Below, piece after piece: positions 3,621-34,510 of a stretch of DNA of 38,819 nucleotides. The stretch spans positions 1 through 38,819 of the forward strand of contig JBJEQH010000154.1 in assembly GCA_051881655.1 (NCBI GenBank), read 5' to 3'. Position 1 is the first letter of the stretch. Every line of letters begins with the position of its first letter. The position numbers and the translations under genes are program-made. Below the pieces are notes generated by a model. It was not told where the DNA came from and did not search any database. It was given only the letters and a program-made list of their open reading frames with translations. The DNA comes from Candidatus Heritagella sp. Its GTDB lineage: Bacteria > Bacillota > Clostridia > Oscillospirales > Acutalibacteraceae.

Positions 3621-3632
3621 TTTTTCCGCAAA

Positions 3633-3669
3633 ACGGCCCGTACAGAGAACCTGTACGGGCCGTTTTTTA
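3633..3669 (+). terminator. Rho-independent terminator
   Basis: acggcccgtacag (3633-3645) pairs perfectly with ctgtacgggccgt (3651-3663), followed by a T-tract. Confidence 0.85.
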
Positions 3670-3770
3670 TGGAGAAAGAGAAGAGAAACGCTCTTCCTGC
3701 CGTAAATCCGACGAAAAACAGGGCAAAGAGAGCGGAGGCGTGAGGATCTGTGAGCAACGGGTGATTCCCA

Positions 3771-3810
3771 GAAAGAAAATCGGCCCCGGTTTTAAAAAAC
3801 CGGGGCCGAT
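3771..3810 (-). terminator. Rho-independent terminator of prs
   Basis: atcggccccggtt / aaccggggccgat hairpin (3779-3810). On the minus strand it is followed by tttctttc. Confidence 0.8.
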
Positions 3811-3823
3811 TGGTACATTTTCT

Positions 3824-4969: not shown

Positions 4970-5040
4970 GTTTTTGTAACACCCTTCTTCTGTGAGATTC
5001 GCCCCGGTCGCCGGGGCATTTGTCCGTTCTTATCGAGGTT

Positions 5041-5049
5041 ATTATAACA
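5041..5049 (-). promoter_or_regulatory. Candidate extended -10 promoter of prs
   Basis: The minus strand reads TGtTATAAT. The -35 is weak. The leader contains the GC hairpin gccccgg-cga-ccggggc (5001-5017). Confidence 0.35.
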
Positions 5050-15999: not shown

Positions 16000-17106
16000 T
16001 CAGTCCTCGGGAGTGGGTGTGGGCGTAGCCGTGGAAGAGAATTTTTCCACAAACATGGCCGGGTCATAGGCTCCGACCACTTCACTGTTCCACTCGATAT
16101 CGGTAAGGGAATCAGCCCCTTCTTTCAGCATGGCGTCAAATTCGTCGCCGCGCATCTCGCTGAGGATAGCGCTGCGGGTGCCGTCGCTCTCCAAATGCTG
16201 CTGGCATTCGTCAAAAATCGGATTTTTCTGCAAAATCACGTACAAATGCTGCTCGGGCAGCCCGAAGGTGACAACCTCCCCTTCCTTTATCTCCGCCAGT
16301 TTCCCGAGAAAATCCTCCGGATACAGCAGGCTCTCGCTGGTGGGGTCGATGGTGTCCTGTGTCAGAAGATCATAGGAAGCCTCGCTCTTCTCCTTATAGG
16401 CCTGCGCTGCCTTTTCCATGGTGCTGTTCCCCTCACGGATGGAGAGGGCATACCCGTCAAACGTATCGGTAACTTCCTTCTTCGCGTCCCCGTCCATTTC
16501 CACGGTTTCGCCGTCTTCGTTCTTCGTGGTCAGGGAAGCACAGAAATACTGAAAGGTCACATATTTGTTGTCGTAATACTCGTGGATTTCCTCGTCGGAG
16601 ACCTCTTTTTCTCCGCCTTTTCCATAGATATCCATGAAGACGGCGGCGTACATCACGGCGTACCGGGCATAGGCACGGGAGAAGGACTCCTGAGAAATCC
16701 CGTAGGAATCAAAGGTGCTGCCCAGGCTGGACCAGTAGTTGGAGGCCATGCTCTTGACGGTGCTCTCCTGTTCCGGCGAGAGAGTCAGATCCCGTTCCTC
16801 CATCAGTTGCTCCACATAGAACAGGCGACGAGTCAGGGACTTGGCTTCCTCCAAAATCCAGTCAGAGGCCTTCATGCCGTCGAACTCCGTGTCCATCAGC
16901 GGCACGGTTTTGTCGGTGCGGCTGTTTTCCGCCTCGTTAAAAGCGGCGAACAGCTCGTAAATATACACGCCCGTGGCCAGGGTGTCGTCCCCGCGCTTGG
17001 CGCTCCAGGTTTTTGATTCCGAGTAACAGCCGGTGCAAACTCCCAACAGGAGCATCGCGCTCAGCAGCGCGGCCAGCCCTTTTTTACCCCATTTTTTCAT
17101 GTTCAT
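16000..17106 (-). CDS. Putative lipoprotein, PrsA/SurA-like foldase candidate
   Basis: Signal peptide with Cys (AMLLLGVCTGC). The position directly downstream of mfd is where Firmicutes often carry a PrsA-type gene. There is a weak parvulin-like tail (IKEGEVVTFGLPEQHLYVILQKN). The functional call is tentative. Confidence 0.7.
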   Translation of the reverse strand: MNMKKWGKKGLAALLSAMLLLGVCTGCYSESKTWSAKRGDDTLATGVYIYELFAAFNEAENSRTDKTVPLMDTEFDGMKASDWILEEAKSLTRRLFYVEQLMEERDLTLSPEQESTVKSMASNYWSSLGSTFDSYGISQESFSRAYARYAVMYAAVFMDIYGKGGEKEVSDEEIHEYYDNKYVTFQYFCASLTTKNEDGETVEMDGDAKKEVTDTFDGYALSIREGNSTMEKAAQAYKEKSEASYDLLTQDTIDPTSESLLYPEDFLGKLAEIKEGEVVTFGLPEQHLYVILQKNPIFDECQQHLESDGTRSAILSEMRGDEFDAMLKEGADSLTDIEWNSEVVGAYDPAMFVEKFSSTATPTPTPED

Positions 17107-21737: not shown

Positions 21738-21857
21738 ACACATGGTAGCTGTCGGCTGCGTAATTTCACGCGCCGTTTTTCGGGGAAACCCGTTTTTTCA
21801 GCTGGTTAAATTGGGAATCGGATTCCCGATTTTAAAATTTTTAGGAGGTAGATACCC

Positions 21858-24494: not shown

Positions 24495-24546
24495 TTCGAA
24501 AGAAAAACCCTTCTTTTCCCTGCGGATATCGAATCGCTGAATAAGA

Positions 24547-24586
24547 CCGCCCCTGTTTTCCCGATGGAAAGCAGGGGCGGTTTTTT
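24547..24586 (+). terminator. Rho-independent terminator of ppdK
   Basis: ccgcccctg... / ...caggggcgg long stem (24547-24580), followed by TTTTTT. Confidence 0.85.
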
Positions 24587-24592
24587 GTATGC

Positions 24593-24635
24593 AAAAGGCC
24601 CATGTCCCGGGCAGCTTGTTCCGGGCATGGGCCTT
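24593..24635 (-). terminator. Terminator of the seven-gene glycosylation operon
   Basis: aaggcccatg(t)cccgg / ccgggcatgggcctt stem of about 15 bp with one bulge. On the minus strand it is followed by TTTT. Confidence 0.65.
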
Positions 24636-24664: not shown

Positions 24665-25324
24665 TCATTTTTCCGGAAGTGCGGCGATTTGGGGGAAAAT
24701 TTCAGCGGGTGAAGCCACACAGCCCACATGAGGATATGCATCGGCCTGCGACCGGCTGTGGAAGCCCAGGCCGTAGGTCACGGCCAGAAAGTCCATCCCG
24801 GCCAGGGCGGCTCCCTGCGCATCGAAAAGACTGTCCCCCACTAAAAGGCTGTCCTCCTTTTCGACCGACAGGATGCGGCATGCCTCTTCAAGGAGAGAGG
24901 CCTTCCGGCACTCCGGGGTTCCGTCGTATGCACAAAGGCCGTCAAAATACCGGAGAATATGCAGGTTTTCCAGCATCTTTCCGGCGAATCTCTCGTGCTT
25001 CAGGGTGGCCAGCGCGATCAGACAGCCGCAGGCCTTTAAATCCCGCAGGCACGCTTCGATCCCATCGTACAGCCTGGCCATAAAGATTCCCTTTTGGGCA
25101 TACAGCTCCCGGTAGAGCTGTGCGGCTTTTTCCGAATCCGCCGGGCTCATCCCGTATACCTTTTGAAAGCCCGCGTCCACCTGGCCGCCGATCACCCCCT
25201 CGTACCGCTCCTGTTCGGCGGGAAGAAGGCCCATGCGGCGGGCCGCTTCTCCGTAACACCAGAGAATGCCCCCGGAGGTATCGGCGAGGGTCCCATCCAG
25301 ATCAAAGATGACCAGCTTTTTCAT
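24665..25324 (-). CDS. HAD-IA family phosphatase (phosphoglycolate-phosphatase-like)
   Basis: Motif I VIFDLDGTLADT and motif IV VGDSLFDAQGA. ATGA start/stop overlap with the upstream gene. Confidence 0.85.
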   Translation of the reverse strand: MKKLVIFDLDGTLADTSGGILWCYGEAARRMGLLPAEQERYEGVIGGQVDAGFQKVYGMSPADSEKAAQLYRELYAQKGIFMARLYDGIEACLRDLKACGCLIALATLKHERFAGKMLENLHILRYFDGLCAYDGTPECRKASLLEEACRILSVEKEDSLLVGDSLFDAQGAALAGMDFLAVTYGLGFHSRSQADAYPHVGCVASPAEIFPQIAALPEK

Positions 25325-26880
25325 GAGACGGCCCGCTCCTTATTCCCGTTTTCCCGGAGGCAGTCGAGCAGGCGCTTTTCCGTGGCCTCCAGGATGCCCT
25401 CCAGCACCCGGATTTTCTCTCGCTCCGATGAGTCAATTCCGTGCAGATCCACGGTGATCCCGGTGTATTTCAGTTCTTTTTTCTCATTCATGGCGTTCAC
25501 CCTCTCCAGTACGGAATCCTCTTGACAGTATACATAAACAGTGTGGCGGCTGCCGTCTGTCCCATCGGCAAATACCGGCCGGACGTGACGGAAAATCGAT
25601 GGGTCCTTCCCGTCGTAGTAGAGATGCTGGCTGTCCTCCTGGAGGAACAGCACCACTTTGGGACGGCTGACGGAGCCGTGTTCCGCCCGGAAGGATTGGA
25701 AAAACTCGCGGCTTCCCTCCTGCCGGTCCGACAGCACAAGGATGTCCGCGGGGGAAGAGAGCGGTGTGAAAGTGTATGAGGCGCCGCACAGCTCGGCGAG
25801 CAGAAGCTCATTTGCATTGGTTGCGATGGAATCTCCCGCATTGGCCAGCAGGGCCAGCACCCGCGAGGCGGCATAATAGGAGAGCAGATACGGGTAATCC
25901 GTGAGGATCCGCTTATCAAAGCTGACGGCGGTTTTCACACACGGTCCCAAGGAGCGTACGGCCGTGGAATAGGCGGCAACGGCCTTGTCAAACACCGCGT
26001 CGGTGCAGTAGGGCAGCAGCTCGGACGGCATGGAGAACGGCAGCACATCGGCATCGGGGAACAGCGTATGATAGCAGCCCGCGATGTCATCGGGGTGCGG
26101 CTTAATCACCGGGTGCATGCCCGGCAGCAGCAGATCGGCGAACAGAGTGTAAAGGCGGTGCTGCTGCGGCAGCGTCATCAGGCCGAGGTTTGCCATGTGC
26201 TGGGTGAGAATCAGCCCGGACGAGGTACCAAGGGAGAGCTTTTGGCAGCCGAACAGGGCGAGAACCCGGCCCCGCTTGTCCTGCGGCAGCTGCTGCAGGA
26301 TTCTGTCCACGGAAAAGTCGGCCATTTTCGGGTTTTGGTACCCCGGGGCCTGTTTCTGGGTGTCTGCCAGCACCTTGGTACACAGGTCATTATCCCCAAA
26401 CAACCGCAGCTTATCAAACAGCTTGCGCTGGGTCCGGTTGCGGCTCATATTGGTCAGGGCGAATCCCCGGTCCGAGAGAACCCCACAGCCCTCTTCAAAA
26501 CAGACATAGGGCTTTTTGGAGGTGACAACATACCACCCCAGGGGGAAGTGATCCGGGCACAAAAACAGTTCGTCCTTTCCGGTCAGGGGAACGGGCAGAC
26601 GCTTTTTGATCATCCGGCAGCACAGTTTTCCGACCAGAGAGGAGGGAATTTTCCGCCGGTCCAGACTTCGGGCGAAGTCGGTCACCTCGGCCTCCGGCAG
26701 AAGAAAAACCTCATCGAAAATGCCGGCCTGGCGGTATCGTTCCAGATAGGCGGCCGAATTTCGGTGGATATCAGAGAGCAGCAGCACACATTTTTGGCCG
26801 GTGTCCTCGGTCAGGCGGTGCAGCGCACAGCACAGAATGTGATAGGTGGTCACCGCATAATAAATTCGCATAGAGAGCAT
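25321..26880 (-). CDS. GT-B sialyltransferase-like glycosyltransferase, paralogue A (polysialyltransferase/GT52-like motifs)
   Basis: E-E-G motif (CFEEGCG, 26488-26496) and HP motif (VIKPHPDD, HP at 26092-26097) in the order and spacing of the bacterial sialyltransferase D/E-D/E-G and HP motifs. AAAGGAGGA RBS. It is a paralogue of 31293-32846. Confidence 0.7.
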   Translation of the reverse strand: MLSMRIYYAVTTYHILCCALHRLTEDTGQKCVLLLSDIHRNSAAYLERYRQAGIFDEVFLLPEAEVTDFARSLDRRKIPSSLVGKLCCRMIKKRLPVPLTGKDELFLCPDHFPLGWYVVTSKKPYVCFEEGCGVLSDRGFALTNMSRNRTQRKLFDKLRLFGDNDLCTKVLADTQKQAPGYQNPKMADFSVDRILQQLPQDKRGRVLALFGCQKLSLGTSSGLILTQHMANLGLMTLPQQHRLYTLFADLLLPGMHPVIKPHPDDIAGCYHTLFPDADVLPFSMPSELLPYCTDAVFDKAVAAYSTAVRSLGPCVKTAVSFDKRILTDYPYLLSYYAASRVLALLANAGDSIATNANELLLAELCGASYTFTPLSSPADILVLSDRQEGSREFFQSFRAEHGSVSRPKVVLFLQEDSQHLYYDGKDPSIFRHVRPVFADGTDGSRHTVYVYCQEDSVLERVNAMNEKKELKYTGITVDLHGIDSSEREKIRVLEGILEATEKRLLDCLRENGNKERAVS

Positions 26881-26899
26881 CCTCCTTTCTGACAGTTTT

Positions 26900-29014
26900 T
26901 CACCGCTGGTATTCCCGCTCGATCAGGGCCCGCAGGGGCTCGGTGCGGTGCCCGCTGGTTCCTACGGCGCGGTTGACCGGGTAATCGCCGAACAGATTTT
27001 TAAAGTAATCCACCTGGGAAATGACAAACCGGCAGACTTCATAGGCATCGGCGCCGCAGATGTTCAGCATAGCGGGGAAGGAGGAGAATGCCTCGGTGTA
27101 GTCAGCGGCAAAATCCCGGATGCCGCTTTGGATTTCTTTCATATAGTCAAATCCCTCGGTTTCCGGCAAATCGAACCGGTATCGGATGTGGTGCTCCTCG
27201 TCATAGGCAAAGCCCAGGAAGGACGGCGTGGGGGAAGCGAGCATCATCTCGATAAAGACACTGTACAGCCGCTGAACATCGTGGCTCTCCTTTATGTCGC
27301 GGTTTTTTCGCTGGGAGAAGGCATAGGCATCCATCCGCCCATTGAGCAGGGGCGTTTCGATGATGGTCTGATCGTGCAGGTAATTGGCGCCGATTACCGC
27401 GCCGTACACCTGACAGTCCATGTTCCACTCCTGTTCAACCAGATAACGGATGGCGGAAAAGCCGCTGGCGGCCCAACCCACATCCACACACAGAACCTTG
27501 TGGGCGCTTCCGATTTTTTTGGTGAAGTATTCCCGGGCAGCGCCCTCGCTCTGGGCCCGCTTTTCTTCAATCAGCTCCCAGTTGTGCAGCAGCACGTCCA
27601 CAATGGCATCGTAATTCTCCTGAGAGAGAATCGTGTCCGGTTCAATCCCGGCGCGGTGCAGCCGTTCCGTCATTTCGGGCAGATCCATGGCGGCACACAT
27701 TTCTTTTACCGGGATTTTCCGGGAGATTTTGTATTTGACATACCGCAGGATGTATTCATGGCGGAAGGCACCGGCGGTCAGCAGGGTGGCCGCAGCGCGG
27801 GACCAGTAGAAATACTCGGTGTTCTCCCCGGGGTATAGGCGGTCGTATACCTGCTTGAGAATATCCCCGTCCCGCGACAGAAAGAAGACCTTGCCAATGG
27901 ATTCACTTTCTGCTTTCCGGTGGAGGAACTGGCAGTAACCCAGCACCAAAAGACCCGCATAGGCATAGCCGAATTCATAATACGCACTGGCGCGGCAGGT
28001 GCCGCTGCACAGCTTGTTATTGACAATGCCGCGGTAAGCGGAGCCCACCAGGTCGGTCATATCCCAGGGCCGGTGGCCGTTTCCATAGGAGGAAACACTG
28101 CGCATGAAAACTGTTCCGATCCCGTTTTCCCCGGCGCGCCGGATGTCGGCTGTGTAGTTATCCCCGAAATGAAGAATCCTCTTTCCCGAATAGGCATCCC
28201 GGACAATCTGATACAGGCCGCCCTGCCGCTTGGAGACGCCATAGGCATTGGAGACAAAAAGAGCATCGGGATGATACCCGCATTTCTCCAGCATACGGCG
28301 GATGCACGAAGCGGGAAGATACATATCCGTCACGGCGATGACGGTTTTGCCCATATTGACCGCCATGTCATACACCTGCTTGAGATAGGGGTGGGGCATG
28401 CACAATTCCAGCTCGATTTCCATTTCGACCGAAGCGCCGAAAGCGGGATCCACGATAACATACCGGTTCAGCCGCTGATAGATTTCGATCAGTGTCACTT
28501 CGCCCGAGCCGGTCTGCTGTCGCTTTGCCTCCCGGGCTTCCGTTTCGGCCAGCACCCGGTAACGGAAAAAGCTGGGGCACCGCAGCTTCTCCCCCACCAG
28601 ATAAAACAGAGTTTTGGGGTCATCAAACGGGCGCAGCAGCAGAGTATCAAACACGTCGAACGAGATAACGTCATTCATCAGGATTTTTTTGGCGAGAAAG
28701 GGGTAGCTGGGCCGCCGGATGTGCCGGGTCTCCGGCTGATCGGTATAGGGCGCCAGCGAATACTTTCGCAATGCGGCCGCACTGACACGGTGGTGCCGCA
28801 GCCCGTCGCCGGCCAGAGCGGACAAATTGAGGAAAAACAGATACAGGGCCTTTCGGGGGCGGCTGATGCCGGGCTTTCGCTCCCGGTAAAAAGAGCGAAG
28901 AATCCATCGGTTCCACAGGGTGGCCATCCGCAGGAGCTTTCTCCGGATGCGGAAAAGGGTCCTTTTCAGAGAGGCGATTGTTTTTTTATAAAAAGCATAC
29001 ATGGGAATGCGCAT
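26900..29014 (-). CDS. Large HAD-superfamily protein, COG5610-like
   Basis: ISFDVFDTLLLRPF (motif I, dehalogenase-like spacing) and HFGDNYTADI (motif IV), then a domain of about 430 aa (FFLSRDGD..., VDVGWAASG...). The start is ambiguous: ATG 29014 or 29002. The ORF is open to 29473, but that part overlaps the upstream gene. Confidence 0.7.
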   Translation of the reverse strand: MRIPMYAFYKKTIASLKRTLFRIRRKLLRMATLWNRWILRSFYRERKPGISRPRKALYLFFLNLSALAGDGLRHHRVSAAALRKYSLAPYTDQPETRHIRRPSYPFLAKKILMNDVISFDVFDTLLLRPFDDPKTLFYLVGEKLRCPSFFRYRVLAETEAREAKRQQTGSGEVTLIEIYQRLNRYVIVDPAFGASVEMEIELELCMPHPYLKQVYDMAVNMGKTVIAVTDMYLPASCIRRMLEKCGYHPDALFVSNAYGVSKRQGGLYQIVRDAYSGKRILHFGDNYTADIRRAGENGIGTVFMRSVSSYGNGHRPWDMTDLVGSAYRGIVNNKLCSGTCRASAYYEFGYAYAGLLVLGYCQFLHRKAESESIGKVFFLSRDGDILKQVYDRLYPGENTEYFYWSRAAATLLTAGAFRHEYILRYVKYKISRKIPVKEMCAAMDLPEMTERLHRAGIEPDTILSQENYDAIVDVLLHNWELIEEKRAQSEGAAREYFTKKIGSAHKVLCVDVGWAASGFSAIRYLVEQEWNMDCQVYGAVIGANYLHDQTIIETPLLNGRMDAYAFSQRKNRDIKESHDVQRLYSVFIEMMLASPTPSFLGFAYDEEHHIRYRFDLPETEGFDYMKEIQSGIRDFAADYTEAFSSFPAMLNICGADAYEVCRFVISQVDYFKNLFGDYPVNRAVGTSGHRTEPLRALIEREYQR

Positions 29015-29067
29015 ACCTCCGTGATCCGGGCGGACCGGAATCCGCCGGAAAAAGTGAATGGCTGTGT

Positions 29068-30660
29068 TCAGGCGCTTTGGTGCGCCAGCATGGATGTGTA
29101 TTTCGAATCGGTGACAAAACTCAGCTCCAGTTCGGACGAACGCTTGCGAAGCTGAACGGCGATTTCCGCGTTTTTCTGCTGGGCCGTATACCGGTCCATG
29201 TACGAATCGAACCGGCTGTCCAGATAATTCTGCGCGCGCGGCTCGAAACCGTCGAAGCCCGCCAGGGCCGCGCTGGAGGCCCCGCACTGCACCAGCAGCT
29301 TCAGGAGCATCATTCCCGCGCTGTCGGGGGAGTAAGCGGAGGTGTTGGTCAGGGAGGAGTAGTTGACAATCAGGGCATCCGGATTGCGGCCGGCGAGGTT
29401 GGAAGTCAGCAGCAGCGGTGTTTCCCCGGCGGCACCCAGCTGTTCGTATCTTCGGGCATTGGTGACAAAGCACAGATCTGCCGGGAACAGCGGGTGGAGG
29501 AAGTTCACGCTGATGACAAAGGGCCGGTACTGCAAAATGTAATCACGGATCCGATCGGCCTGCAGCCGGCCGTTCTTTCCCGGTGCGAGAACCAGAATCC
29601 GGCGGCCGCTCAGCATGGTGCGCAGCGTCGCGATCGCCCGGCTGTCATCAATGCAGTTTTTCTGATAGGAGAGGTACAGCTGTTTGATCAGATCCACATC
29701 GAAGCGCTTGCGCTTGTCCGCCGGGATCTGATCGAGAATTTCCTTGATGGACTGGGCGCTGAGCGTCTGTTTGGCGATCAGGTACGCCGAATAGTTGGGG
29801 TGGCAGAAATTCACGGCGGACAGGTAGTACGCCAGCGAGTACCCCCAGGGGTTCGAGACATAAATGCCGGACAGATACTTGTCCGACAATTCGATCACGG
29901 GCAGTACGTCATAGCAGGTGCCGTTATTTTTGTTCAGATAATCCATGATCAATTCGGAGCAGAGGTTTCCCGCGCCCCGGCCGATCCCGTTGGCACTGCA
30001 GTCGATCAGCAGGGGGCGGTCGGTTTTGTAATGGATCATCTGCTGCGCGTTGGAAAAGGCCAGCTGCAAATTGTTGTGGGAGTGAAAGCCCAGACAAATG
30101 CCGGGGCGGAGATTATAGTCCGCCAGGAACAGCTGGCGCTGCAGATCGCGGGCATACATGCACCCCAGGGTATCCACAATATAAAAGGCATAGGGCTGAA
30201 TCTCATTGACCCGGAGGATCAGGGAGAGCAGCCGATCATCCGAGTAAAACGAGCTGCCCACCGGCTGCATAAACAGCTTATAGCCCTTTTCCTGGATGAT
30301 CCGGCCGTAGGTTAACGCTTTGTCGATTTCATCGGAGTGGAAAGTCAGGCGGATTCCTTCAATGCCGCCCGGATGGGCCGGCGGCAAAAGACGGGGATCG
30401 GTCTCCTTTTCCCCGATGGCGATCATGGCCACATACATATTTTTTCCATTGCCCGGCAGGGGACCGATGTCGTCGGGGGAGTGAAACAGGGAACAGTCCC
30501 TGTCCGCCGGTGTGTCGGTGAGAAATCCGCATTCGATGATGTCCATTCCGGACTGGGACAGGTTCTCGAGGATATCCCGGATCACCGCTTCGCCAAAACG
30601 CCAGTCGTTGATATAGCCGCCGTCCCGAAGGGTGCAGTCAAGCAGTCGAATCTGGCTCAT
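29068..30660 (-). CDS. DRE-TIM (HMGL/4-hydroxy-2-oxovalerate-aldolase-like) aldolase fused to a CstII/Maf (GT42/DUF115)-like domain
   Basis: N-terminal LLDCTLRDGGY, GFHSHNNLQLAFSNA (HxH) and DCSANGIGRGAGN motifs. The C-terminal ~180 aa (about 29071-29604) carry ILVLAPGKNG...VISVNF...SAGMMLLKLLVQCGASSAALAGFDGF. The start ATG lies 1 nt after the upstream stop (TGAtATG). Confidence 0.8.
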   Translation of the reverse strand: MSQIRLLDCTLRDGGYINDWRFGEAVIRDILENLSQSGMDIIECGFLTDTPADRDCSLFHSPDDIGPLPGNGKNMYVAMIAIGEKETDPRLLPPAHPGGIEGIRLTFHSDEIDKALTYGRIIQEKGYKLFMQPVGSSFYSDDRLLSLILRVNEIQPYAFYIVDTLGCMYARDLQRQLFLADYNLRPGICLGFHSHNNLQLAFSNAQQMIHYKTDRPLLIDCSANGIGRGAGNLCSELIMDYLNKNNGTCYDVLPVIELSDKYLSGIYVSNPWGYSLAYYLSAVNFCHPNYSAYLIAKQTLSAQSIKEILDQIPADKRKRFDVDLIKQLYLSYQKNCIDDSRAIATLRTMLSGRRILVLAPGKNGRLQADRIRDYILQYRPFVISVNFLHPLFPADLCFVTNARRYEQLGAAGETPLLLTSNLAGRNPDALIVNYSSLTNTSAYSPDSAGMMLLKLLVQCGASSAALAGFDGFEPRAQNYLDSRFDSYMDRYTAQQKNAEIAVQLRKRSSELELSFVTDSKYTSMLAHQSA

Positions 30661-30661
30661 A

Positions 30662-31336
30662 TCAGCATTGCCCTTCTTTCCGGGGGCGGATGTAGGTATC
30701 CAGGACCATTTGTGCCACATCGAAGTCAAACGGCTCATTGATATCACATGCCTCGATAAAATCCACCGGGAGCAGGCAGGGGGTTTCACCGATCCGCCTT
30801 CCCTTTTCCACGATCAGTTCCCGTTTAAAGGCATACATTCCCGTGGTTTCGGCGAACAGATTGCCGATGTCCTGGGTTCTGGGAATATGGGTGCTGTCAT
30901 AAAGGGGCTGGCCGTTCAGCCATACAAATTCATTCAGCCGTTTGACCGTGGTGGCACTGTCATAGCCGCCCGAAATAATGGCGTCCAGCCCGGCCTGCAG
31001 GGTTTTGGCAGAGAGAAACGGCGCCGTGGCATGAGTCATCAGATAGTTTTCGGCAGGTACTGCCTCGCAGAAGGAACGCATCACTTCCAAAATGGGGGTG
31101 GTCTGCCGATCCAGACGGGTGTCGCGCTTTAAGAATTTGATCCCCTCGGGAAGATAGGGCAGAACCTCCTCACTGCTGCAGTAGACAAAAGCGGCATCCA
31201 GCCCCTGAACATGGGTGAGGGAATCCAGAATATAGCACAGAAGCGGTTTTCCTCCCGCAAAGGGCCGGGTGTTTTTCCCCGGCAGGCGCTGGTTATTCAG
31301 CTTGATGGGAACGAAGGCGACGGATTTGTATTTCAT
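30662..31336 (-). CDS. Acylneuraminate/CMP-ulosonate-type cytidylyltransferase (NeuA/KdsB/SpsF family)
   Basis: N-terminal VAFVPIKLNNQRLPGKN nucleotide-binding loop, about 224 aa in a single domain. AAAGGAG RBS 8 nt before the ATG. Confidence 0.8.
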   Translation of the reverse strand: MKYKSVAFVPIKLNNQRLPGKNTRPFAGGKPLLCYILDSLTHVQGLDAAFVYCSSEEVLPYLPEGIKFLKRDTRLDRQTTPILEVMRSFCEAVPAENYLMTHATAPFLSAKTLQAGLDAIISGGYDSATTVKRLNEFVWLNGQPLYDSTHIPRTQDIGNLFAETTGMYAFKRELIVEKGRRIGETPCLLPVDFIEACDINEPFDFDVAQMVLDTYIRPRKEGQC

Positions 31337-32846
31337 TGAGGTAGCTCCTTTTCATTTTATTGTACCGGCTGCACAGCAGGCGGGCTTCTCTCTCGGTTCT
31401 GCGGTGGGCAGAAATCTCACAGATGGCGTGGGTATAGGACAGGGGACAGCGGATTCGCAGGCCGCCGAGTTTTTCAAGCAGGGAGGCGTCACGGCTCGAA
31501 ACGGAAATCCGGTGGAAATAGGGCCGGGCGATGGATCCCTCTTCGGGGGTGACCCGCACCGTTACCTCCATCATGCCGGACAGCTTCTCTTCGGTGACGC
31601 CGTTGGTGTAGGGGGCGGTTCCCAGAAACACACACAGCCCGTAGGGGCCGGTCTGGTTTTCATCGCTTTCGCACACGCCGCTGTCCACCAGCACCTTCAG
31701 GCGGGGGCCGTCTTTCCCGGATTTGTACATGGACTGAAAGCACTCGGCAGCCGTCCGGCTGACCCCGCGGTAGGTCTGTTCCCCGCTGCTGTTCAAAAAC
31801 TGCAGAATACGGGCCAGCGCGTAGAAAAGGTGCAGGCTCTCCGGATCCTTTTCCACCGCGGTTCCCAGGCTGCAGGTACGCCCGACAAAAGGGGCCAGCC
31901 CGCCCACCGCGGTGGAACTGATGGTAATGGCCAGCTGAGGCGGGGAATCAAAGACAAATGGAAGCAGCTCGGCGTTGACCTCGCGGGGCAGTATTTCGCT
32001 TTTTGGGAAAACACGCCGGTAATCCAGCCATTTGTCCTTGGGATGTGGCTTTACAAGAAGGCGGAAATCCGGAGCAAAATAGTCGGCCAGCAGGGTGGAG
32101 AGGTACTCCTGGGTTTCCAGGTCGTTTTCGGCCAGCGTCTCCAGATATTGCGTCAGAAACAGACAGGTTTTTTGGTTTGGGTCCAGTTTGATCGGCGTGA
32201 TTCCGTAAAAATCCAGCAGGGCGGCCCGGTCCTTTTCCGGCATGGAGCGCACGGCCTCGTACACGGAAAAATTCACGGCCCGGTCATCATGAAAACCGGG
32301 CAGTTGATTTTTCAGGTCACACAAACAGGCGGTCACCAGCGGGCTTCGTCCCGCCCCGTGAAGGTGGTTGCAGATGATAAAATTGGACAGGTTGAACTTT
32401 TTGGTAATCGCCAGATAGCGCTCCGGCTGTGAGAGCATGCCGCTGCCGTCCTCGATATACACATAGGGAATGCGGTTGTGCAGCAGATAGACGCCCAGCG
32501 ACCACTGATCCGATGCCACATACAGGGTTTCCATCTGCCGCAGATCCAGATCCAGCCATTTTTCAAAGGTGTGGCTGATCGCCTCTGCCATGGCGTCAAT
32601 CTCCTCGGGTCGGCTGGTTTCATCCAGCGCGCCGCCCCGTTTCAGCTTGAAAGAGATCTCAGGAATCACCCTGACAAAGGAAAACCAGCCGTTTTCTTCC
32701 AGCCGGTTCAGCAGATCCCGGTTTTTCATTTCCGGCAGCAGGTATTCCGACAGGAACAGGCAGCACGGCCGGTCCCGATGGACCGTCATGCGGTGGCAGA
32801 TAACATACAATAGCTGATACAGGGTCGTTACATGGTACAGAATCAT
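31293..32846 (-). CDS. GT-B sialyltransferase-like glycosyltransferase, paralogue B
   Basis: E-D-G motif (YIEDGSG, 32445-32453) and HP motif (LVKPHPKD, HP at 32040-32045). The N-terminus LYHVTTLYQLLYVICHR parallels IYYAVTTYHILCCALHR of paralogue A. Confidence 0.7.
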   Translation of the reverse strand: MILYHVTTLYQLLYVICHRMTVHRDRPCCLFLSEYLLPEMKNRDLLNRLEENGWFSFVRVIPEISFKLKRGGALDETSRPEEIDAMAEAISHTFEKWLDLDLRQMETLYVASDQWSLGVYLLHNRIPYVYIEDGSGMLSQPERYLAITKKFNLSNFIICNHLHGAGRSPLVTACLCDLKNQLPGFHDDRAVNFSVYEAVRSMPEKDRAALLDFYGITPIKLDPNQKTCLFLTQYLETLAENDLETQEYLSTLLADYFAPDFRLLVKPHPKDKWLDYRRVFPKSEILPREVNAELLPFVFDSPPQLAITISSTAVGGLAPFVGRTCSLGTAVEKDPESLHLFYALARILQFLNSSGEQTYRGVSRTAAECFQSMYKSGKDGPRLKVLVDSGVCESDENQTGPYGLCVFLGTAPYTNGVTEEKLSGMMEVTVRVTPEEGSIARPYFHRISVSSRDASLLEKLGGLRIRCPLSYTHAICEISAHRRTEREARLLCSRYNKMKRSYLNEIQIRRLRSHQAE

Positions 32847-32850
32847 GGTG

Positions 32851-34170
32851 TTACTCCCCCTCCATCATGTGCGAAATCGAATCAGCGGCGGATTGGTACA
32901 GCCGGACGGCACAGGCCGACAGCTCGTCGCTGCGGATACCGGTACAGCGGGAAGAGCGGTGGAACGCACGGCCGTAATCGAGAACTCCCTGCCGGGCAAG
33001 GGCGCCCGCCCGGGAGAACTCTCCGTCGGTGAGGAGAACATAGGCGTCTTTCTGGCCGTTCAGCGCCCCGGAAAAATACGATTCCACGGTGTTCTCGCCT
33101 TCCGCGCTGCCCATAATGGGAACACCGAATACTTCTTCCATATAGCGCGGGAAGAAATCATCCGGGAGCCCCCCGACAGAAAGGGGCCCATCGGGATGGG
33201 CCTGATACAGACGGTACGCGGCCGCGTACACAATGGGGCCAATGTACAGAAAGGACAGCTCATAGGCGCGGTGGGGTTCGTACCGGTTGAGCAGTGCGGT
33301 CAAAAGTGTGTGCCAGTAAACCTCGGTGAATGCGCAGGGCGGCAGGGGGAAGCGGATTCTCTTTCTTAAAAAGGCCCGGTGGGGGATATAGTATGGCTTG
33401 GCCCCGCGGCGCATGGCCGGTTTTAGGAATCCGCGGAAATCACAGCTCAGCGCGGCGATGTCTCCCTCGGGCAGAGCCTTTTGCAATAGCTTCCCCTTTG
33501 AAAGCCCCAGATCGGAGGAACAGAGAAGGGTATCTGCCGGGATTCCGTTGGCGGATAAGAGAGCGGCGGTCTGCCGGCTGCCCAAACTGGTTACCGCCAC
33601 CGCGCACAGGGGAAGCCCGCAGGTGTGCAGAATCTCCGCGGCCCGTTTCAGATAGGGATTGGGCGTATAGAGTTTAAAAATCCATGCCTCTTCCCGGTGA
33701 AAATCGGCCTGACAGCCCAGCTTTTCGTTGATCTTTTCATAGATGGCTGCAAGGGGAAGGGTCGGGTCATCCAGCTTCTTTCGGGTTTTGGAAAAATTCC
33801 GAATGCCGTTCTCCCTCTCCAAAAGAGCAAAAAGGTCCGTTTCCTCGAGGGGGCACACCAAAAGGCTGCCGAATACATCCAGGCAGGCTCCGTGCAGGCC
33901 GGCCGCCGGAGAGATGAAATCCTGCACCCGGCGGCGCCGGTATTTTTCCGGGATGCCGTCGGACGCATCGGCTTTCCGATTGCGGAGAAATGGAAGGCGG
34001 TACAGCAGGTTTATTTTCAGCAGGGCCATGCCAAAAGCAATGGGAGAACCGGTGGCCTTCTCCGGATTTTCGGCGCGCAGCCGGGTGGTGGACAGACAGA
34101 TGTCCTCGTTGCCGTTGGTCAGAAAACCATAGAGTTGATTGAGCAGGGACGGTGACAGTTTTTCAAGCAT
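32851..34170 (-). CDS. Divergent COG5610/HAD-like protein, probably catalytically degenerate
   Basis: Alignable by eye to 26900-29014 (LDVFGSLLVCP vs FDVFDTLLLRP; PNPYLKRA vs PHPYLKQV; LGLSKGKLLQ vs YGVSKRQGGLYQ). The GDxxxD motif IV is absent. The start is taken at ATG 34170. The ORF is open to 34650 across the AT-rich intergenic region and the trkA start. Confidence 0.6.
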   Translation of the reverse strand: MLEKLSPSLLNQLYGFLTNGNEDICLSTTRLRAENPEKATGSPIAFGMALLKINLLYRLPFLRNRKADASDGIPEKYRRRRVQDFISPAAGLHGACLDVFGSLLVCPLEETDLFALLERENGIRNFSKTRKKLDDPTLPLAAIYEKINEKLGCQADFHREEAWIFKLYTPNPYLKRAAEILHTCGLPLCAVAVTSLGSRQTAALLSANGIPADTLLCSSDLGLSKGKLLQKALPEGDIAALSCDFRGFLKPAMRRGAKPYYIPHRAFLRKRIRFPLPPCAFTEVYWHTLLTALLNRYEPHRAYELSFLYIGPIVYAAAYRLYQAHPDGPLSVGGLPDDFFPRYMEEVFGVPIMGSAEGENTVESYFSGALNGQKDAYVLLTDGEFSRAGALARQGVLDYGRAFHRSSRCTGIRSDELSACAVRLYQSAADSISHMMEGE

Positions 34171-34227
34171 AATAAATTCCTTTGCCGCAGAATTGTTCAC
34201 TTTCAAAATAACAGGATAACAGGCAAA

Positions 34228-34233
34228 ATTATA
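34228..34233 (-). promoter_or_regulatory. Candidate -10 box for the glycosylation operon
   Basis: The minus strand reads TATAAT about 55 nt upstream of ATG 34170, with only a weak -35 (ATTACG). Confidence 0.3.
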
Positions 34234-34419
34234 AATTCCGTTTTTCTTTCGTAATGTTGCGGTAAAAAATAAATAAAGCCCCAACCCCCAAAAAGGAGAG
34301 AAAAAGCGGAAATTTTGGGATTTTGGTTTTATAAAAAAGCCCGGCTGGCTGGTTTTTTGTGGAAGAAAGGAGAATTTGTGTGTTTTCCCTTTTTGATGGT
34401 GGAACAAAAAGAAAAACGG

Positions 34420-34428
34420 TGCTATAAT
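34420..34428 (+). promoter_or_regulatory. Candidate extended -10 promoter of trkA-trkH
   Basis: TGcTATAAT. The leader contains the ctttggct/agccaaag hairpin (34447-34471) and a GC hairpin just before the RBS. Confidence 0.35.
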
Positions 34429-34510
34429 GACTGCGTATGTCCGGTGCTTTGGCTGATGGAAAAAGCCAAAGGGAAAGGACCGCGCACCGCGCGGAAGAGG
34501 AGAACCGAAG

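What the first reader, a model, noticed from the sequence alone, without database searches (positions are those of the whole stretch)
24665..34170. Seven-gene CMP-sugar / sialyltransferase-like glycosylation operon with no export genes and no canonical ulosonic-acid synthase
Seven co-directional minus-strand genes are packed with junctions from -44 to +53 nt (TGAtATG at 30658-30664, ATGA at 25321-25324). They are bounded by an AT-rich promoter region and a hairpin plus T-tract terminator (24593-24635). In order, the products are: a degenerate HAD-like protein; sialyltransferase-motif protein B; a NeuA/KdsB-type cytidylyltransferase; a DRE-TIM aldolase fused to a CstII/Maf-like domain; a large COG5610-type HAD protein; sialyltransferase-motif protein A; and a small DxDxT HAD phosphatase. 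The logic mirrors the Kdo/Kdn/Neu5Ac routes: condensation, HAD phosphatase, CMP activation, transfer. The operon encodes no NeuB/PseI/LegI- or KdsA-type synthase and no sugar-nucleotide dehydratase, epimerase or aminotransferase. By eye, none of the seven products has a signal peptide, a clear TM helix, a flippase, a polymerase or an ABC exporter. My inference is a cytoplasmic glycosylation system. It would make a CMP-activated 3-deoxy-2-ulosonic acid with a class II (metal-dependent, pyruvate-using) aldolase in place of the PEP-dependent synthase, then transfer it to an unknown acceptor. I do not recognise this combination as a characterised pathway.
Basis: partly seen in the sequence, partly recalled or inferred. 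Interest (0 to 1): 0.8.

Follow-up and report, generated by a model that had tools for sequence, protein, structure and literature searches.

The report
Ribose–ulosonic-acid wall polymer operon
A real seven-gene operon in a gut Clostridia genome most likely builds an acidic cell-wall sugar polymer from ribose and a Kdo-like acid sugar, and it appears to make that acid sugar with an uncharacterised aldolase instead of the usual synthase.

Summary
The same gene set in the same order occurs in at least 13 other Clostridia genomes.

The interpretation needs two corrections.

1. The "large COG5610 HAD protein" (G3) is a full-length PRPP-dependent polysaccharide ribofuranosyltransferase plus phosphatase. 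It matches the CrpP-CriT part of Bcs3 and PDB entry 7SHG. G7 is a degenerate paralogue of it.
2. In related genomes the same cassette sits in ABC-transporter and LCP wall-polysaccharide loci. In one genome (L072) these lie directly upstream of an orthologous seven-gene set. A "cytoplasmic glycosylation system" is therefore unlikely.

Other parts hold. G6 and G2 are GT-B enzymes with sialyltransferase-type motifs. G5 is a CMP-ulosonate-type cytidylyltransferase.

The G4 aldolase–DUF115 fusion sits next to a cytidylyltransferase in 68 of 77 operon blocks. That neighbour is KdsB-like in about half of them. A small HAD phosphatase usually lies nearby. I found no NeuB- or KdsA-type synthase in any block.

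Best reading: the operon assembles a ribofuranose plus Kdo-like ulosonic-acid wall polymer. The system resembles the E. coli K13 polymerase KrkA, but its precursor comes from an uncharacterised pyruvate-aldolase route. That route is inferred, not shown.

The parts
34171..34510 (-). AT-rich intergenic region upstream of G7, with the probable promoter. TATAAT lies at 34234-34229. TTACC (34265-34261) and TTACG (34254-34250) repeat with an 11-bp period. The RBS is AAAGGAA.
   Evidence: Sequence. G+C is 0.41 against 0.57 for the operon. The consensus scan did not call a sigma-70 site here. Orthologous loci carry clearer TTACA direct repeats. Function is inferred.
32851..34170 (-). G7 (439 aa): a degenerate paralogue of the N-terminal two thirds of G3. 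It has the helical N-terminus, a HAD-like domain and the start of the transferase part. It is probably non-catalytic and a partner of G6.
   Evidence: hhalign of the G7 family against the G3 family gives probability 99.8 and E 6.5e-30, covering G3 residues 21-395. The Asp at the HAD nucleophile position is kept in 25 of 26 members. No motif III Lys, no motif IV acids, no SRDG motif and no C-terminal half are present. There is no Pfam hit.
31293..32846 (-). G6 (517 aa): a GT-B glycosyltransferase with sialyltransferase-type motifs (E132-D133, K266-P-H268-P269, S311-T312) and a C-terminal beta-rich domain followed by a long helix. It is the putative CMP-ulosonic-acid transferase A.
   Evidence: The AF2 model has pLDDT 90.6. 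Foldseek finds GT-B enzymes, including GT80 sialyltransferases 4v2u, 4r83, 8sv2 and 2zwi, at E of about 1e-6 to 1e-5. The motif columns are invariant in 35 sequences. The Pfam GT52 match is marginal.
30662..31336 (-). G5 (224 aa): a NeuA-type cytidylyltransferase, the putative CMP-ulosonate synthetase.
   Evidence: Pfam CTP_transf_3, 44.2 bits against a cut-off of 22.6. The nearest solved structures are the Prymnesium CMP-Kdn synthetase 9t4z (E 2.5e-8) and the mouse CMP-Neu5Ac synthetase. It is far below the PseF and KdsB equivalog cut-offs.
29791..30660 (-). G4 N-terminal domain (about aa 1-290): a DRE-TIM metallolyase of the 4-hydroxy-2-oxovalerate-aldolase-like branch. Motifs are DCTLRDGGY and GFHSHNNL. 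It is the putative pyruvate-dependent ulosonate(-phosphate) synthase.
   Evidence: Profile search against the PDB gives 3dxi 'putative aldolase' at E 1.5e-34, then 4-hydroxy-2-oxovalerate aldolases 4lrs and 1nvm at E of about 1e-15. R12, D13, H193 and H195 are invariant. The substrate is inferred.
29068..29673 (-). G4 C-terminal domain (about aa 330-530): a member of the DUF115 / MptE-like superfamily (Maf, CstII, MptE, SteA). Its role is unresolved: transferase, kinase or nucleotide-sugar-binding regulatory domain.
   Evidence: PF01973 matches 6 of 13 full-length family members, best E 7.8e-6. Profile hits are weak: SteA-like 9hmz (E 0.005), MptE 8sd5 (E 0.059) and a GT42 sialyltransferase 9c08 (E 0.12). 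There are 669 50%-identity clusters, both fused and stand-alone.
26900..29014 (-). G3 (704 aa; 675 aa if it starts at 28927): a polysaccharide ribofuranosyltransferase/phosphatase. It has a basic helical N-terminus, a CrpP-like HAD phosphatase (about aa 113-315, nucleophile D120) and a CriT-like PRPP transferase (about aa 316-704, D382 and D511).
   Evidence: Profile search against Bcs3 gives E 7.8e-36 over Bcs3 residues 382-821. The AF2 model has pLDDT 88.3. Foldseek finds Bcs3 8a0c_A at E 2.6e-21 over 651 columns and 7shg 'polysaccharide ribofuranosyl transferase' at E 4.5e-18. D120, D382 and D511 are invariant. They align with Bcs3 D386, D680 and E818, which are described in PMC10299916.
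25321..26880 (-). G2 (519 aa): a paralogue of G6 and the putative CMP-ulosonic-acid transferase B. Motifs are FEEGCG and KPHPDD. Its C-terminal helix reads VLEGILEATEKRL.
   Evidence: BLASTP against G6 gives 29% identity over 357 aa, E 5e-43. G2 was included in alignment A2, where the motif columns are invariant.
24665..25324 (-). G1 (219 aa): a HAD-IA phosphatase (DLDGT) resembling phosphoglycolate phosphatase. It is the putative ulosonate-phosphate phosphatase.
   Evidence: Pfam HAD_2, E 7.5e-26. It is below every NCBIfam equivalog cut-off. An orthologue follows the G4 gene in 40 of 77 operon blocks, and a Cof-type HAD takes that place in 10 more.
24593..24635 (-). Intrinsic terminator of the operon: GGCCCATGCCCGG...CCGGGACATGGGCC followed by TTTTG.
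   Evidence: Sequence. The inner stem was also found by the scan.

Best explanation
The seven genes are one operon. It encodes the cytoplasmic-face assembly machinery for an acidic cell-wall glycopolymer made of beta-ribofuranose and a CMP-activated 3-deoxy-2-ulosonic acid (Kdo-like).

Proposed steps:
1. The aldolase domain of G4 condenses pyruvate with a phosphorylated aldose from central metabolism. This gives an ulosonate phosphate (inferred).
2. G1 removes the phosphate (inferred).
3. G5 makes the CMP-sugar from CTP (family shown, substrate inferred).
4. G6 and G2 are inverting-type GT-B enzymes with sialyltransferase motifs. They transfer the acid sugar (fold and motifs shown, donor inferred).
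5. G3 transfers ribofuranose 5-phosphate from PRPP to the growing glycan and then removes the 5-phosphate (family, fold and catalytic residues shown).

G7 is a degenerate copy of G3 and probably acts as a partner or scaffold for G6. The DUF115 domain of G4 is either a third transferase or a nucleotide-sugar-binding domain.

Export and attachment to peptidoglycan would use an ABC-2 transporter and an LCP ligase encoded elsewhere in this genome, as in related loci.
For: G3:
- The family profile matches Bcs3 at E 7.8e-36.
- The model matches Bcs3 and 7shg over about 650 columns.
- The catalytic Asp residues are invariant.

G6 and G2:
- The model is confident and has a GT-B fold.
- The E-D and HP motifs are invariant.

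Operon blocks in 77 related loci:
- 68 have a cytidylyltransferase next to the aldolase gene.
- 53 have an ST-like GT.
- 49 have a RibT-like gene.
- 50 have a small HAD, of type IA or Cof.

The cytidylyltransferase:
- It is KdsB-like in 36 loci and NeuA-like in 34. One G4 clade has both kinds.
- The KdsB-like form scores E 5e-45 to E. coli K-CKS. It passes two NCBIfam KdsB subfamily cut-offs.

No rival synthase nearby:
- No NeuB, DAHP_synth_1 or SIS family appeared in the listed summary for 62 non-core block genes.

Export and wall attachment:
- Type C loci add a GT2, a CriT-only protein, an ABC-2 permease, an ABC ATPase and an LCP protein.
- L072 has GT2, ABC-2 permease, ATPase, GT4, Big_2 and LCP directly upstream of an orthologous seven-gene set, on the same strand.

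Known precedent:
- E. coli K13 KrkA combines a Kdo transferase with the same kind of ribosyltransferase (PMC12887879).
Against: - No enzyme activity or glycan structure is known for any member of the G4, G6/G2 or G7 families.
- The G4 aldolase replaces the catalytic His of BphI/DmpG with Tyr (RDGGY against RDGSH). Its substrates are unknown.
- An aldol condensation with pyruvate is thermodynamically less favourable than the PEP-dependent reaction (established knowledge).
- This window has no ABC exporter, LCP protein or priming transferase.
- Most type A and type B loci also lack an exporter or LCP within 10 kb.
- I could not search the rest of the genome for kdsA, neuB or kdsD.
- The G6 structural matches are generic GT-B hits with low TM-scores of 0.3-0.5.
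- The G6 family profile finds no solved relative by sequence.
Confidence: 0.55

Rival explanations
1. A self-contained cytoplasmic glycosylation system makes a CMP-ulosonic acid and transfers it to an intracellular acceptor, for example a flagellin or another protein before secretion. No polymer is exported.
For: - No exporter, flippase, polymerase or TM protein lies in the operon or the window.
- Most type A and type B loci have none within 10 kb.
- The operon sits in different housekeeping contexts in different genomes.
- G4 carries a DUF115 domain, the family that includes the flagellin glycosyltransferases Maf (family knowledge).
Against: - G3 belongs to a family known only from polysaccharide assembly.
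- Capsule polymerases of this kind (Bcs3, KrkA) are also soluble or peripheral proteins without TM segments (PMC10299916, PMC12887879).
- The cassette lies in ABC-2 plus LCP loci in more than 30 species. One such module sits directly upstream of an orthologous seven-gene set in L072.
- No flagellin, pilin or S-layer gene is linked in any locus.
Confidence: 0.15
2. The CMP-sugar comes from a canonical PEP-dependent synthase (KdsA or NeuB/PseI/LegI type) encoded elsewhere. G4 then has another job. It might cleave or recycle the sugar, make a small 4-hydroxy-2-oxo-acid substituent, or act mainly through its DUF115 domain as a transferase.
For: - Only 38.8 kb of the genome is visible.
- Canonical kdsABCD islands do occur in some Gram-positive bacteria (PMC4744853).
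- Characterised relatives of the aldolase domain act on small aldehydes (family knowledge).
- The catalytic His is replaced by Tyr.
Against: - G4 is adjacent to a cytidylyltransferase in 68 of 77 blocks. The genes are often translationally coupled, as here with a 1-nt gap.
- The adjacency holds across two different cytidylyltransferase types.
- A small HAD phosphatase of either of two unrelated subfamilies is kept next to G4.
- No synthase family was seen among the block neighbours.
- Many conserved aromatic and polar residues in the barrel suggest a sugar-sized substrate (inference).
Confidence: 0.2
3. The operon makes a spore-surface glycan that is assembled in the mother-cell cytoplasm. That would explain why no exporter is needed, as with the Bacillus subtilis sps genes.
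For: - The hosts are Bacillota, and many of them form spores.
- There are no export genes in the window.
Against: - No sigma-E or sigma-K type -10 element (CATA...) is visible upstream of G7. A TATAAT box is there instead.
- Orthologous promoters show TTACA direct repeats and TAnAAT boxes.
- Related loci carry an ABC exporter and an LCP wall ligase.
Confidence: 0.05

Closest known systems
KrkA, the E. coli K13/K20/K23 capsule polymerase: a GT140 Kdo transferase fused to a ribosyltransferase (PMC12887879)
   Same: It combines an ulosonic-acid (CMP-Kdo) transferase carrying an HP motif with a PRPP-dependent phosphoribosyl transferase plus HAD phosphatase of the same family as G3. It builds an alternating ribofuranose-Kdo polymer. 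It has no TM segments, and export is by a separate ABC transporter.
   Different: - Here the two activities are on separate proteins, encoded by adjacent gene pairs G7-G6 and G3-G2.
- The acid-sugar transferases are sialyltransferase-like GT-B proteins with an E-D/E motif and no QxxxD motif.
- KrkA, WbbB and KpsC did not appear among the top 50 structural matches.
- The host is Gram-positive.
- The CMP-sugar supply genes are different.
Bcs3 of Haemophilus influenzae type b (CrpP-CriT modules), and the Thermobacillus composti polysaccharide ribofuranosyltransferase 7SHG (PMC10299916)
   Same: G3 matches both over its full length. It keeps the HAD nucleophile and the two acidic residues of the PRPP site.
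   Different: G3 has no TagF-like CroT module and no SH3b domain. It has a basic helical N-terminus instead. Its partner transferases use a CMP-sugar, not CDP-ribitol.
Bacterial GT-B sialyltransferases and polysialyltransferases (GT52, GT38, GT80)
   Same: GT-B fold, a D/E-D/E-G-like motif in the N-terminal half, and HP and Ser-Thr motifs in the C-terminal half. The Pfam matches to GT52 and polysialyltransferase are marginal.
   Different: Sequence similarity is at or below family thresholds. G2 has no Pfam hit. G6 and G2 carry an extra C-terminal domain of about 170 aa. The donor sugar is unknown and may be an octulosonic rather than a nonulosonic acid.
Canonical Kdo pathway (KdsD, KdsA, KdsC, KdsB) and Kdn/Neu5Ac pathways (PEP-dependent synthase, HAD phosphatase, CMP synthetase)
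   Same: The same three-step logic: condensation, dephosphorylation and CMP activation. In half of the related loci the cytidylyltransferase is a KdsB-type enzyme.
   Different: No PEP-dependent synthase is present. A DRE-TIM metallolyase fused to a DUF115 domain occupies that place. The phosphatase is not of the KdsC family.
BVU_2661-type 'putative aldolase' (PDB 3DXI), a 4-hydroxy-2-oxovalerate-aldolase-like DRE-TIM family of unknown function
   Same: It is the closest solved relative of the G4 N-terminal domain (E 1.5e-34) and has the same DCTLRDGGY and HxH motifs.
   Different: Only the N-terminal domain has a structure, and it has no assigned function. Nothing links it experimentally to glycan synthesis.

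Membership tests
Polysaccharide ribofuranosyltransferase/phosphatase (CrpP-CriT type), tested on G3 | Significant sequence similarity spanning both the HAD phosphatase and the PRPP-transferase modules | tested here: met
   The profile of 32 homologues matches Bcs3 at E 7.8e-36 over Bcs3 residues 382-821. This covers CrpP (374-591) and the first half of CriT. Domain limits are from PMC10299916.
Polysaccharide ribofuranosyltransferase/phosphatase (CrpP-CriT type), tested on G3 | Full-length fold similarity to solved members | tested here: met
   Foldseek finds 8a0c_A at E 2.6e-21 (651 columns, TM 0.58 on the query) and 7shg_A at E 4.5e-18 (648 columns). The model has pLDDT 88.3.
Polysaccharide ribofuranosyltransferase/phosphatase (CrpP-CriT type), tested on G3 | HAD nucleophile Asp (Bcs3 D386) and the functional 'DD' pair of the PRPP site (Bcs3 D680 and E818) | tested here: met
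   G3 D120 (FDVFDT), D382 (LSRDGD) and D511 (VDVGW) are invariant in 32 sequences and align with those Bcs3 positions. The proposed base E874 could not be mapped.
Polysaccharide ribofuranosyltransferase/phosphatase (CrpP-CriT type), tested on G3 | Transfer of ribose 5-phosphate from PRPP to a glycan, followed by dephosphorylation | not testable with these tools
   This needs an enzyme assay.
Polysaccharide ribofuranosyltransferase/phosphatase (CrpP-CriT type), tested on G7 | Catalytic motifs of both modules | tested here: not met
   G7 is homologous to G3 residues 21-395. It lacks the SRDG motif, the C-terminal half and HAD motifs III and IV. Only the Asp at the nucleophile position is conserved. 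It is a paralogue, not a functional member.
Bacterial GT-B sialyltransferase-like enzymes (GT52/GT38/GT80), tested on G6 and G2 | GT-B two-Rossmann fold | tested here: met
   The G6 model has pLDDT 90.6. All top matches are GT-B enzymes, among them four GT80 sialyltransferases. G2 is a paralogue and was not modelled.
Bacterial GT-B sialyltransferase-like enzymes (GT52/GT38/GT80), tested on G6 and G2 | D/E-D/E-G motif and HP motif | tested here: met
   G6 has E132-D133-G and K266-P-H-P. G2 has E-E-G and KPHP. E132, K266, P267, H268 and P269 are invariant in 35 sequences, and D133 is nearly invariant. That these motifs define the group is my own knowledge (Freiberger et al. 2007).
Bacterial GT-B sialyltransferase-like enzymes (GT52/GT38/GT80), tested on G6 and G2 | Family-level sequence match above the curated threshold | tested here: inconclusive
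   G6 scores 26.7 bits on GT52 against a cut-off of 26.1. Its polysialyltransferase match is below the cut-off. G2 has no hit. The family profile finds no PDB sequence at E up to 1.
Retaining beta-Kdo transferases (GT99, GT107, GT140), tested on G6 and G2 | QxxxD nucleophile motif together with HP | tested here: not met
   HP is present, but there is no conserved QxxxD. The invariant Q246 and D255 are nine residues apart. No WbbB, KpsC or KrkA structure appears among the top 50 matches. The motif definition is from PMC12887879.
CMP-ulosonate synthetases (CTP_transf_3: KdsB, NeuA, PseF, LegF), tested on G5 | Pfam family match above the cut-off | tested here: met
   44.2 bits against a cut-off of 22.6. 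The nearest structures are a CMP-Kdn synthetase and a CMP-Neu5Ac synthetase.
CMP-ulosonate synthetases (CTP_transf_3: KdsB, NeuA, PseF, LegF), tested on G5 | Assignment to one substrate-specific equivalog (KdsB, PseF and so on) | tested here: not met
   PseF scores 42 bits against 205.7. The KdsB subfamilies score 20.7 and 13.8 bits against 193 and 255. The substrate is therefore open.
DRE-TIM metallolyase, 4-hydroxy-2-oxovalerate aldolase branch, tested on the G4 N-terminal domain | HMGL-like barrel with the RD motif and HxH metal ligands | tested here: met
   Pfam HMGL-like, E 1e-16. R12, D13, H193 and H195 are invariant. It aligns with 4lrs and 1nvm.
DRE-TIM metallolyase, 4-hydroxy-2-oxovalerate aldolase branch, tested on the G4 N-terminal domain | Equivalog-level identity with DmpG/BphI, including the catalytic His after RDG | tested here: not met
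   TIGR03217 scores 60.5 bits against a cut-off of 286. The His is replaced by an invariant Tyr16.
DUF115 / MptE-like (Maf, CstII-like), tested on the G4 C-terminal domain | Pfam PF01973 match | tested here: inconclusive
   The window protein itself has no hit. Six of 13 full-length homologues hit, best E 7.8e-6. Two of 29 stand-alone relatives hit. Profile hits are weak: SteA-like, MptE and a GT42 sialyltransferase. The catalytic His of CstII has no obvious conserved counterpart (my own comparison, from memory).
ABC-transporter-dependent wall or capsule polysaccharide system | ABC-2 permease plus ATPase, and in Gram-positive bacteria an LCP ligase, linked to the polymerase genes | tested here: not met
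   These genes are absent from the 38.8-kb window. They are present in related loci: type C, and L072 upstream of the same seven genes. The system may work like one, but membership is unproven for this genome.

The most novel reading that the evidence does not exclude
The G4 family has thousands of members in Bacillota and Bacteroidota and has a structural-genomics structure (3DXI) without an assigned function. It would be a pyruvate-dependent class II aldolase that replaces the PEP-dependent KdsA/NeuB-type synthases. It would found a previously unrecognised route to CMP-activated Kdo-like (or new) ulosonic acids. In gut Clostridia this route would feed a ribofuranose-ulosonate 'teichulosonic-acid-like' wall polymer, made by a new sialyltransferase-like GT family paired with PRPP-dependent ribosyltransferases.
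Probability: 0.4. Interest if true: 0.8.

Novelty: new variant of a known kind. Interest (0 to 1): 0.6.

Why it matters
Ulosonic acids (Kdo, sialic, pseudaminic and legionaminic acids) are known to be made by PEP-dependent synthases. A widespread aldolase-based route would add a new entry point to this chemistry.

It would also assign a function to a very large "aldolase catalytic domain-containing protein" family. In addition, it would show that many abundant gut Clostridia carry acidic ribose/Kdo-like wall polymers of the kind known as capsule antigens in E. coli, Kingella and Haemophilus. This bears on host immune recognition, phage receptors and glyco-engineering.

Independently of that, the finding extends the recently described PRPP-dependent ribofuranosyltransferases. 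It links them to a new set of partner enzymes and to a catalytically degenerate paralogue.

Tried and rejected
- **Literature.** I ran nine full-text searches. They combined aldolase, cytidylyltransferase, sialyltransferase, HMGL-like, DUF115/MptE-like, 'aldolase catalytic domain-containing protein', Kdo in Gram-positive bacteria, teichulosonic acids and arabinose-5-phosphate isomerase in Clostridium. None turned up a paper that describes this cassette. The SugarBase preprint on new CMP-sugars does not mention an aldolase or Clostridia.
- **PDB sequence search with the G6/G2 family profile.** It found no hit at E up to 1.
- **Retaining Kdo-transferase idea for G6/G2 (GT140/GT99/GT107).** Rejected, because there is no QxxxD motif and no structural match in the top 50.
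- **G7 as a second active ribosyltransferase.** Rejected.
- **Spore-surface glycan with a sporulation promoter.** I found no support.
- **Consensus promoter scan.** It found nothing upstream of G7, and its hits inside genes are at chance level.
- **Function of the G4 C-terminal domain.** Deeper profiling gave only weak, mixed hits to a kinase, SteA and a GT42 enzyme. The function stays open.
- **Canonical synthases elsewhere in the genome.** The rest of this genome, and the complete genomes of cassette carriers, could not be searched for kdsA, neuB or kdsD.

Full report
**Observation**

The region holds seven co-directional minus-strand ORFs:
- G7: 32851-34170
- G6: 31293-32846
- G5: 30662-31336
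- G4: 29068-30660
- G3: 26900-29014
- G2: 25321-26880
- G1: 24665-25324

The junctions are +4, -44, +1, +53, +19 and -4 nt. A long GC-rich hairpin with a T-tract follows G1. The 340 nt upstream of G7 are 41% G+C, against 57% for the operon. None of the products has a hydrophobic stretch compatible with a TM helix.

The flanking genes are housekeeping genes: ppdK, trkA/trkH, mfd, an FHA-RodA/PBP pair, a GH38 enzyme, galT and a pyruvate formate-lyase. The nearest relatives that carry a name are Acutalibacteraceae and Butyricicoccaceae MAGs.

**Domain calls**

- G1 is a HAD-IA phosphatase.
- The G4 N-terminal half is HMGL-like, and its best NCBIfam matches are 4-hydroxy-2-oxovalerate aldolases.
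- G5 is CTP_transf_3.
- G6 just passes the Pfam GT52 cut-off.
- G2, G3 and G7 have no Pfam hit.

The G4 architecture of about 530 aa is conserved over its full length in thousands of proteins. Both halves are strongly conserved. Six of 13 members hit PF01973, MptE-like/DUF115.

**The operon is conserved**

I scanned one genome per species with the G4 family. The scan found at least 561 relatives and I kept 80 loci. They are mostly Clostridia (Oscillospirales, Lachnospiraceae, Christensenellaceae), with a few Bacilli and one Muribaculaceae.

tblastn and ORF clustering show three recurrent layouts:
- **Type A** is the window's seven genes in the same order. It is complete in 13 loci (L002, L003, L007, L009, L011, L013, L014, L015, L017, L021, L063, L072, L080) and cut by contig ends in four more.
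- **Type B** (Lachnospiraceae, Anaeromicropila) has only G7-like, G6-like, G5-like and G4, usually followed by a Cof-type HAD.
- **Type C** (more than 30 loci, for example Solibaculum L029 and L049) has GT2, a CriT-only protein, an ABC-2 permease, an ABC ATPase, G3-like, two ST-like GTs, a large GT2, a KdsB-like cytidylyltransferase, G4, a G1-like HAD and often an LCP protein.

**What the large 'HAD' proteins are**

A profile of 32 G3 homologues matches the Haemophilus influenzae type b capsule polymerase Bcs3 at E 7.8e-36, over Bcs3 residues 382-821. According to the Bcs3 paper, residues 374-591 are the HAD phosphatase CrpP. Residues 592-1036 are CriT, the PRPP-dependent ribofuranose-5-phosphate transferase (PMC10299916).

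The AlphaFold model of G3 has pLDDT 88.3. It matches Bcs3 over about 650 columns at E 2.6e-21. It also matches the Thermobacillus composti 'polysaccharide ribofuranosyl transferase' 7SHG at E 4.5e-18. All other hits are plain HAD domains.

The residues that align with Bcs3 D386 (nucleophile), D680 and E818 (PRPP site) are G3 D120, D382 and D511. All three are invariant in the family. G3 is therefore a dual ribofuranosyltransferase/phosphatase, not a sugar-phosphate phosphatase of a precursor pathway.

G7 is homologous to G3 residues 21-395 (hhalign probability 99.8). It keeps only the Asp at the nucleophile position. It lacks the other HAD motifs, the SRDG motif and the whole C-terminal half. 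It is a degenerate paralogue. In type B loci it is the only G3-like protein, and it always sits immediately upstream of the G6-type transferase. This suggests a partner or scaffold role, which is an inference.

**The ST-like proteins**

G6 and G2 are paralogues, with 29% identity and E 5e-43. The G6 model is confident, with pLDDT 90.6. It is a GT-B fold. The top structural matches are UDP-GlcNAc 2-epimerases, GT1 enzymes and four GT80 sialyltransferases, at E of about 1e-6 to 1e-5. TM-scores are low because of domain opening and an extra C-terminal domain.

In 35 sequences that include G2, E132, K266-P267-H268-P269 and S311-T312 are invariant and D133 is nearly so. These correspond to the D/E-D/E-G and HP motifs of bacterial GT-B sialyltransferases. 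By my recollection they also correspond to the phosphate-binding Ser pair of PmST1.

The QxxxD motif of retaining Kdo transferases (PMC12887879) is absent. Family membership by sequence stays marginal.

**The precursor cassette**

In 68 of 77 operon blocks a cytidylyltransferase gene lies directly next to the G4 gene.

That enzyme is NeuA-like in 34 loci, as here. The nearest structure to G5 is a CMP-Kdn synthetase, at E 2.5e-8. It is KdsB-like in 36 loci. The KdsB-like form scores E 5e-45 to E. coli K-CKS. It passes two NCBIfam KdsB subfamily cut-offs and is just under the equivalog cut-off.

G4 clades mostly follow the type of cytidylyltransferase. One clade whose members share more than 55% identity has both kinds. 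This points to displacement of the activating enzyme for a similar sugar.

A small HAD phosphatase follows G4 in 50 blocks. It is subfamily IA in 40 and Cof-type IIB in 10. Two unrelated phosphatases kept in the same place argue for a phosphorylated intermediate.

I took 62 representatives of the non-core genes in these blocks. The families listed in the Pfam summary were GT4, NTP_transferase, acyltransferase, DegT, GLF, stand-alone MptE-like proteins and housekeeping genes. No NeuB, DAHP_synth_1 or SIS family appeared.

The closest solved relative of the aldolase domain is 3DXI, a 'putative aldolase' without an assigned function (E 1.5e-34). Next come the 4-hydroxy-2-oxovalerate aldolases. 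The metal ligands and the Arg-Asp pair are invariant, but the catalytic His of DmpG/BphI is an invariant Tyr.

Taken together, the most economical reading has four steps:
1. G4 condenses pyruvate with an aldose phosphate.
2. The HAD removes the phosphate.
3. The cytidylyltransferase activates the ulosonate.
4. The GT-B enzymes transfer it.

This chain is inferred from context. No step has been shown.

**The G4 C-terminal domain**

A library-wide search finds 669 50%-identity clusters, both fused to the aldolase and stand-alone. A profile of 29 of them gives only weak hits: a SteA-like protein (E 0.005), the pyrophosphokinase MptE (E 0.059) and a GT42 CMP-Neu5Ac sialyltransferase (E 0.12).

The domain belongs to the DUF115 superfamily. 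Whether it is a third transferase, a kinase or a CMP-sugar-binding regulatory domain cannot be decided here. A regulatory role would be analogous to the C-terminal regulatory domains of other DRE-TIM enzymes.

**Export**

The window has no exporter. In type C loci the cassette lies between an ABC-2 permease/ATPase pair and an LCP ligase.

In L072 an orthologous seven-gene set (G4 52% identical) lies directly downstream, on the same strand, of GT2, an ABC-2 permease, an ABC ATPase, GT4, a Big_2 protein and LytR_cpsA_psr. Polymerases of this kind (Bcs3, KrkA) are themselves soluble or peripheral proteins.

The absence of TM segments and exporters in the operon is therefore weak evidence for cytoplasmic glycosylation. 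A peptidoglycan-linked polymer exported by unlinked genes is more likely. I could not check the rest of the genome.

**Comparison with known systems**

The closest system is the E. coli K13 capsule polymerase KrkA. It fuses a CMP-Kdo transferase (GT140) to a ribosyltransferase of the G3 family and builds a ribofuranose-Kdo repeat (PMC12887879).

This operon has the same two chemistries on separate proteins. It uses a different, sialyltransferase-like transferase family. It has a degenerate ribosyltransferase paralogue, and a precursor cassette that is not the Kds pathway.

Canonical kdsABCD islands do exist in some Bacilli (PMC4744853). An unlinked canonical synthase therefore cannot be excluded.

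**Verdict**

The operon is best described as a new variant of ABC-transporter-type glycopolymer assembly, with ribofuranose plus a CMP-ulosonic acid. Its potentially new element is an aldolase-based ulosonate supply. Interest is moderate to high. The scoring depends mainly on whether the aldolase route is real, which I put at about 0.4.

Noticed in passing
window 34229-34265 (minus strand); L002, L007, L009, L013, L014, L011, L015, L025, L072, L080 upstream of the G7 orthologue: Orthologous type A operons carry direct repeats TTACA-N6-TTACA with an 11-bp period. A third TTACA lies about 22 nt further on, just before a TAnAAT box. The reverse complement (TGTAA...) resembles OmpR/WalR-type response-regulator sites (my own knowledge). 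The window has a weaker version: TTACC, TTACG, then TATAAT.
   Followed up: partly
P0163 (961 aa), relative to window 25321-29014: A protein 96% identical to G3 consists of G3 residues 1 to about 478 fused in frame to G2 from about residue 33. This is a deletion variant of the G3/G2 module in a near-identical strain, or an assembly artefact.
   Followed up: partly
window 25321-25420 (C-terminus of G2); P0270: The C-terminal helix of G2 (IRVLEGILEATEKRLLDCL) recurs almost verbatim at the end of a Neobacillus kokaensis ribosyltransferase homologue (IKVLEGILEATEKRLEHYIK). This suggests a shared C-terminal module, for oligomerisation or localisation, that moves between the ST-like and RibT proteins.
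   Followed up: no
L031 and L069 (both from MAG Coassembly_mag_118): One genome carries two separate loci with a G4 homologue, so the cassette can be present in more than one copy per genome.
   Followed up: no
L069:482-1873 and 32 other type C loci: This is a stand-alone protein of about 463 aa with the CriT motifs (LARDGY, VDSGWAGS) but no HAD domain. It has no Pfam or NCBIfam hit. It is presumably a PRPP-dependent ribosyltransferase that lacks its own phosphatase.
   Followed up: partly
window 24540-24590: A second strong hairpin, AAAAAACCGCCCCTG...CAGGGGCGG, lies between ppdK and G1. Read on the plus strand it is the ppdK terminator, so two terminators sit back to back.
   Followed up: no
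window 12723-15799 (minus strand): An FtsW/RodA-family protein with an N-terminal FHA domain is followed by a class B penicillin-binding protein.
   Followed up: no
window 3506-5047 (+) and 16000-17106 (-): Two sizeable ORFs (513 aa and 368 aa) have no Pfam match at E <= 0.001.
   Followed up: no
window 21798-24398 (-), 26948-27838 (+), 27920-29155 (+), 28978-30315 (+), 31269-32432 (+): These are long ORFs antisense to ppdK and to the operon genes. They are typical of G+C-rich coding DNA and are not genes.
   Followed up: no
P0251, P0271 (homologues of G3): Ribosyltransferase homologues occur fused to an N-terminal GT2 domain (929 aa) or to long N-terminal extensions (896 aa). This shows modular shuffling of the family in Bacillota.
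   Followed up: no
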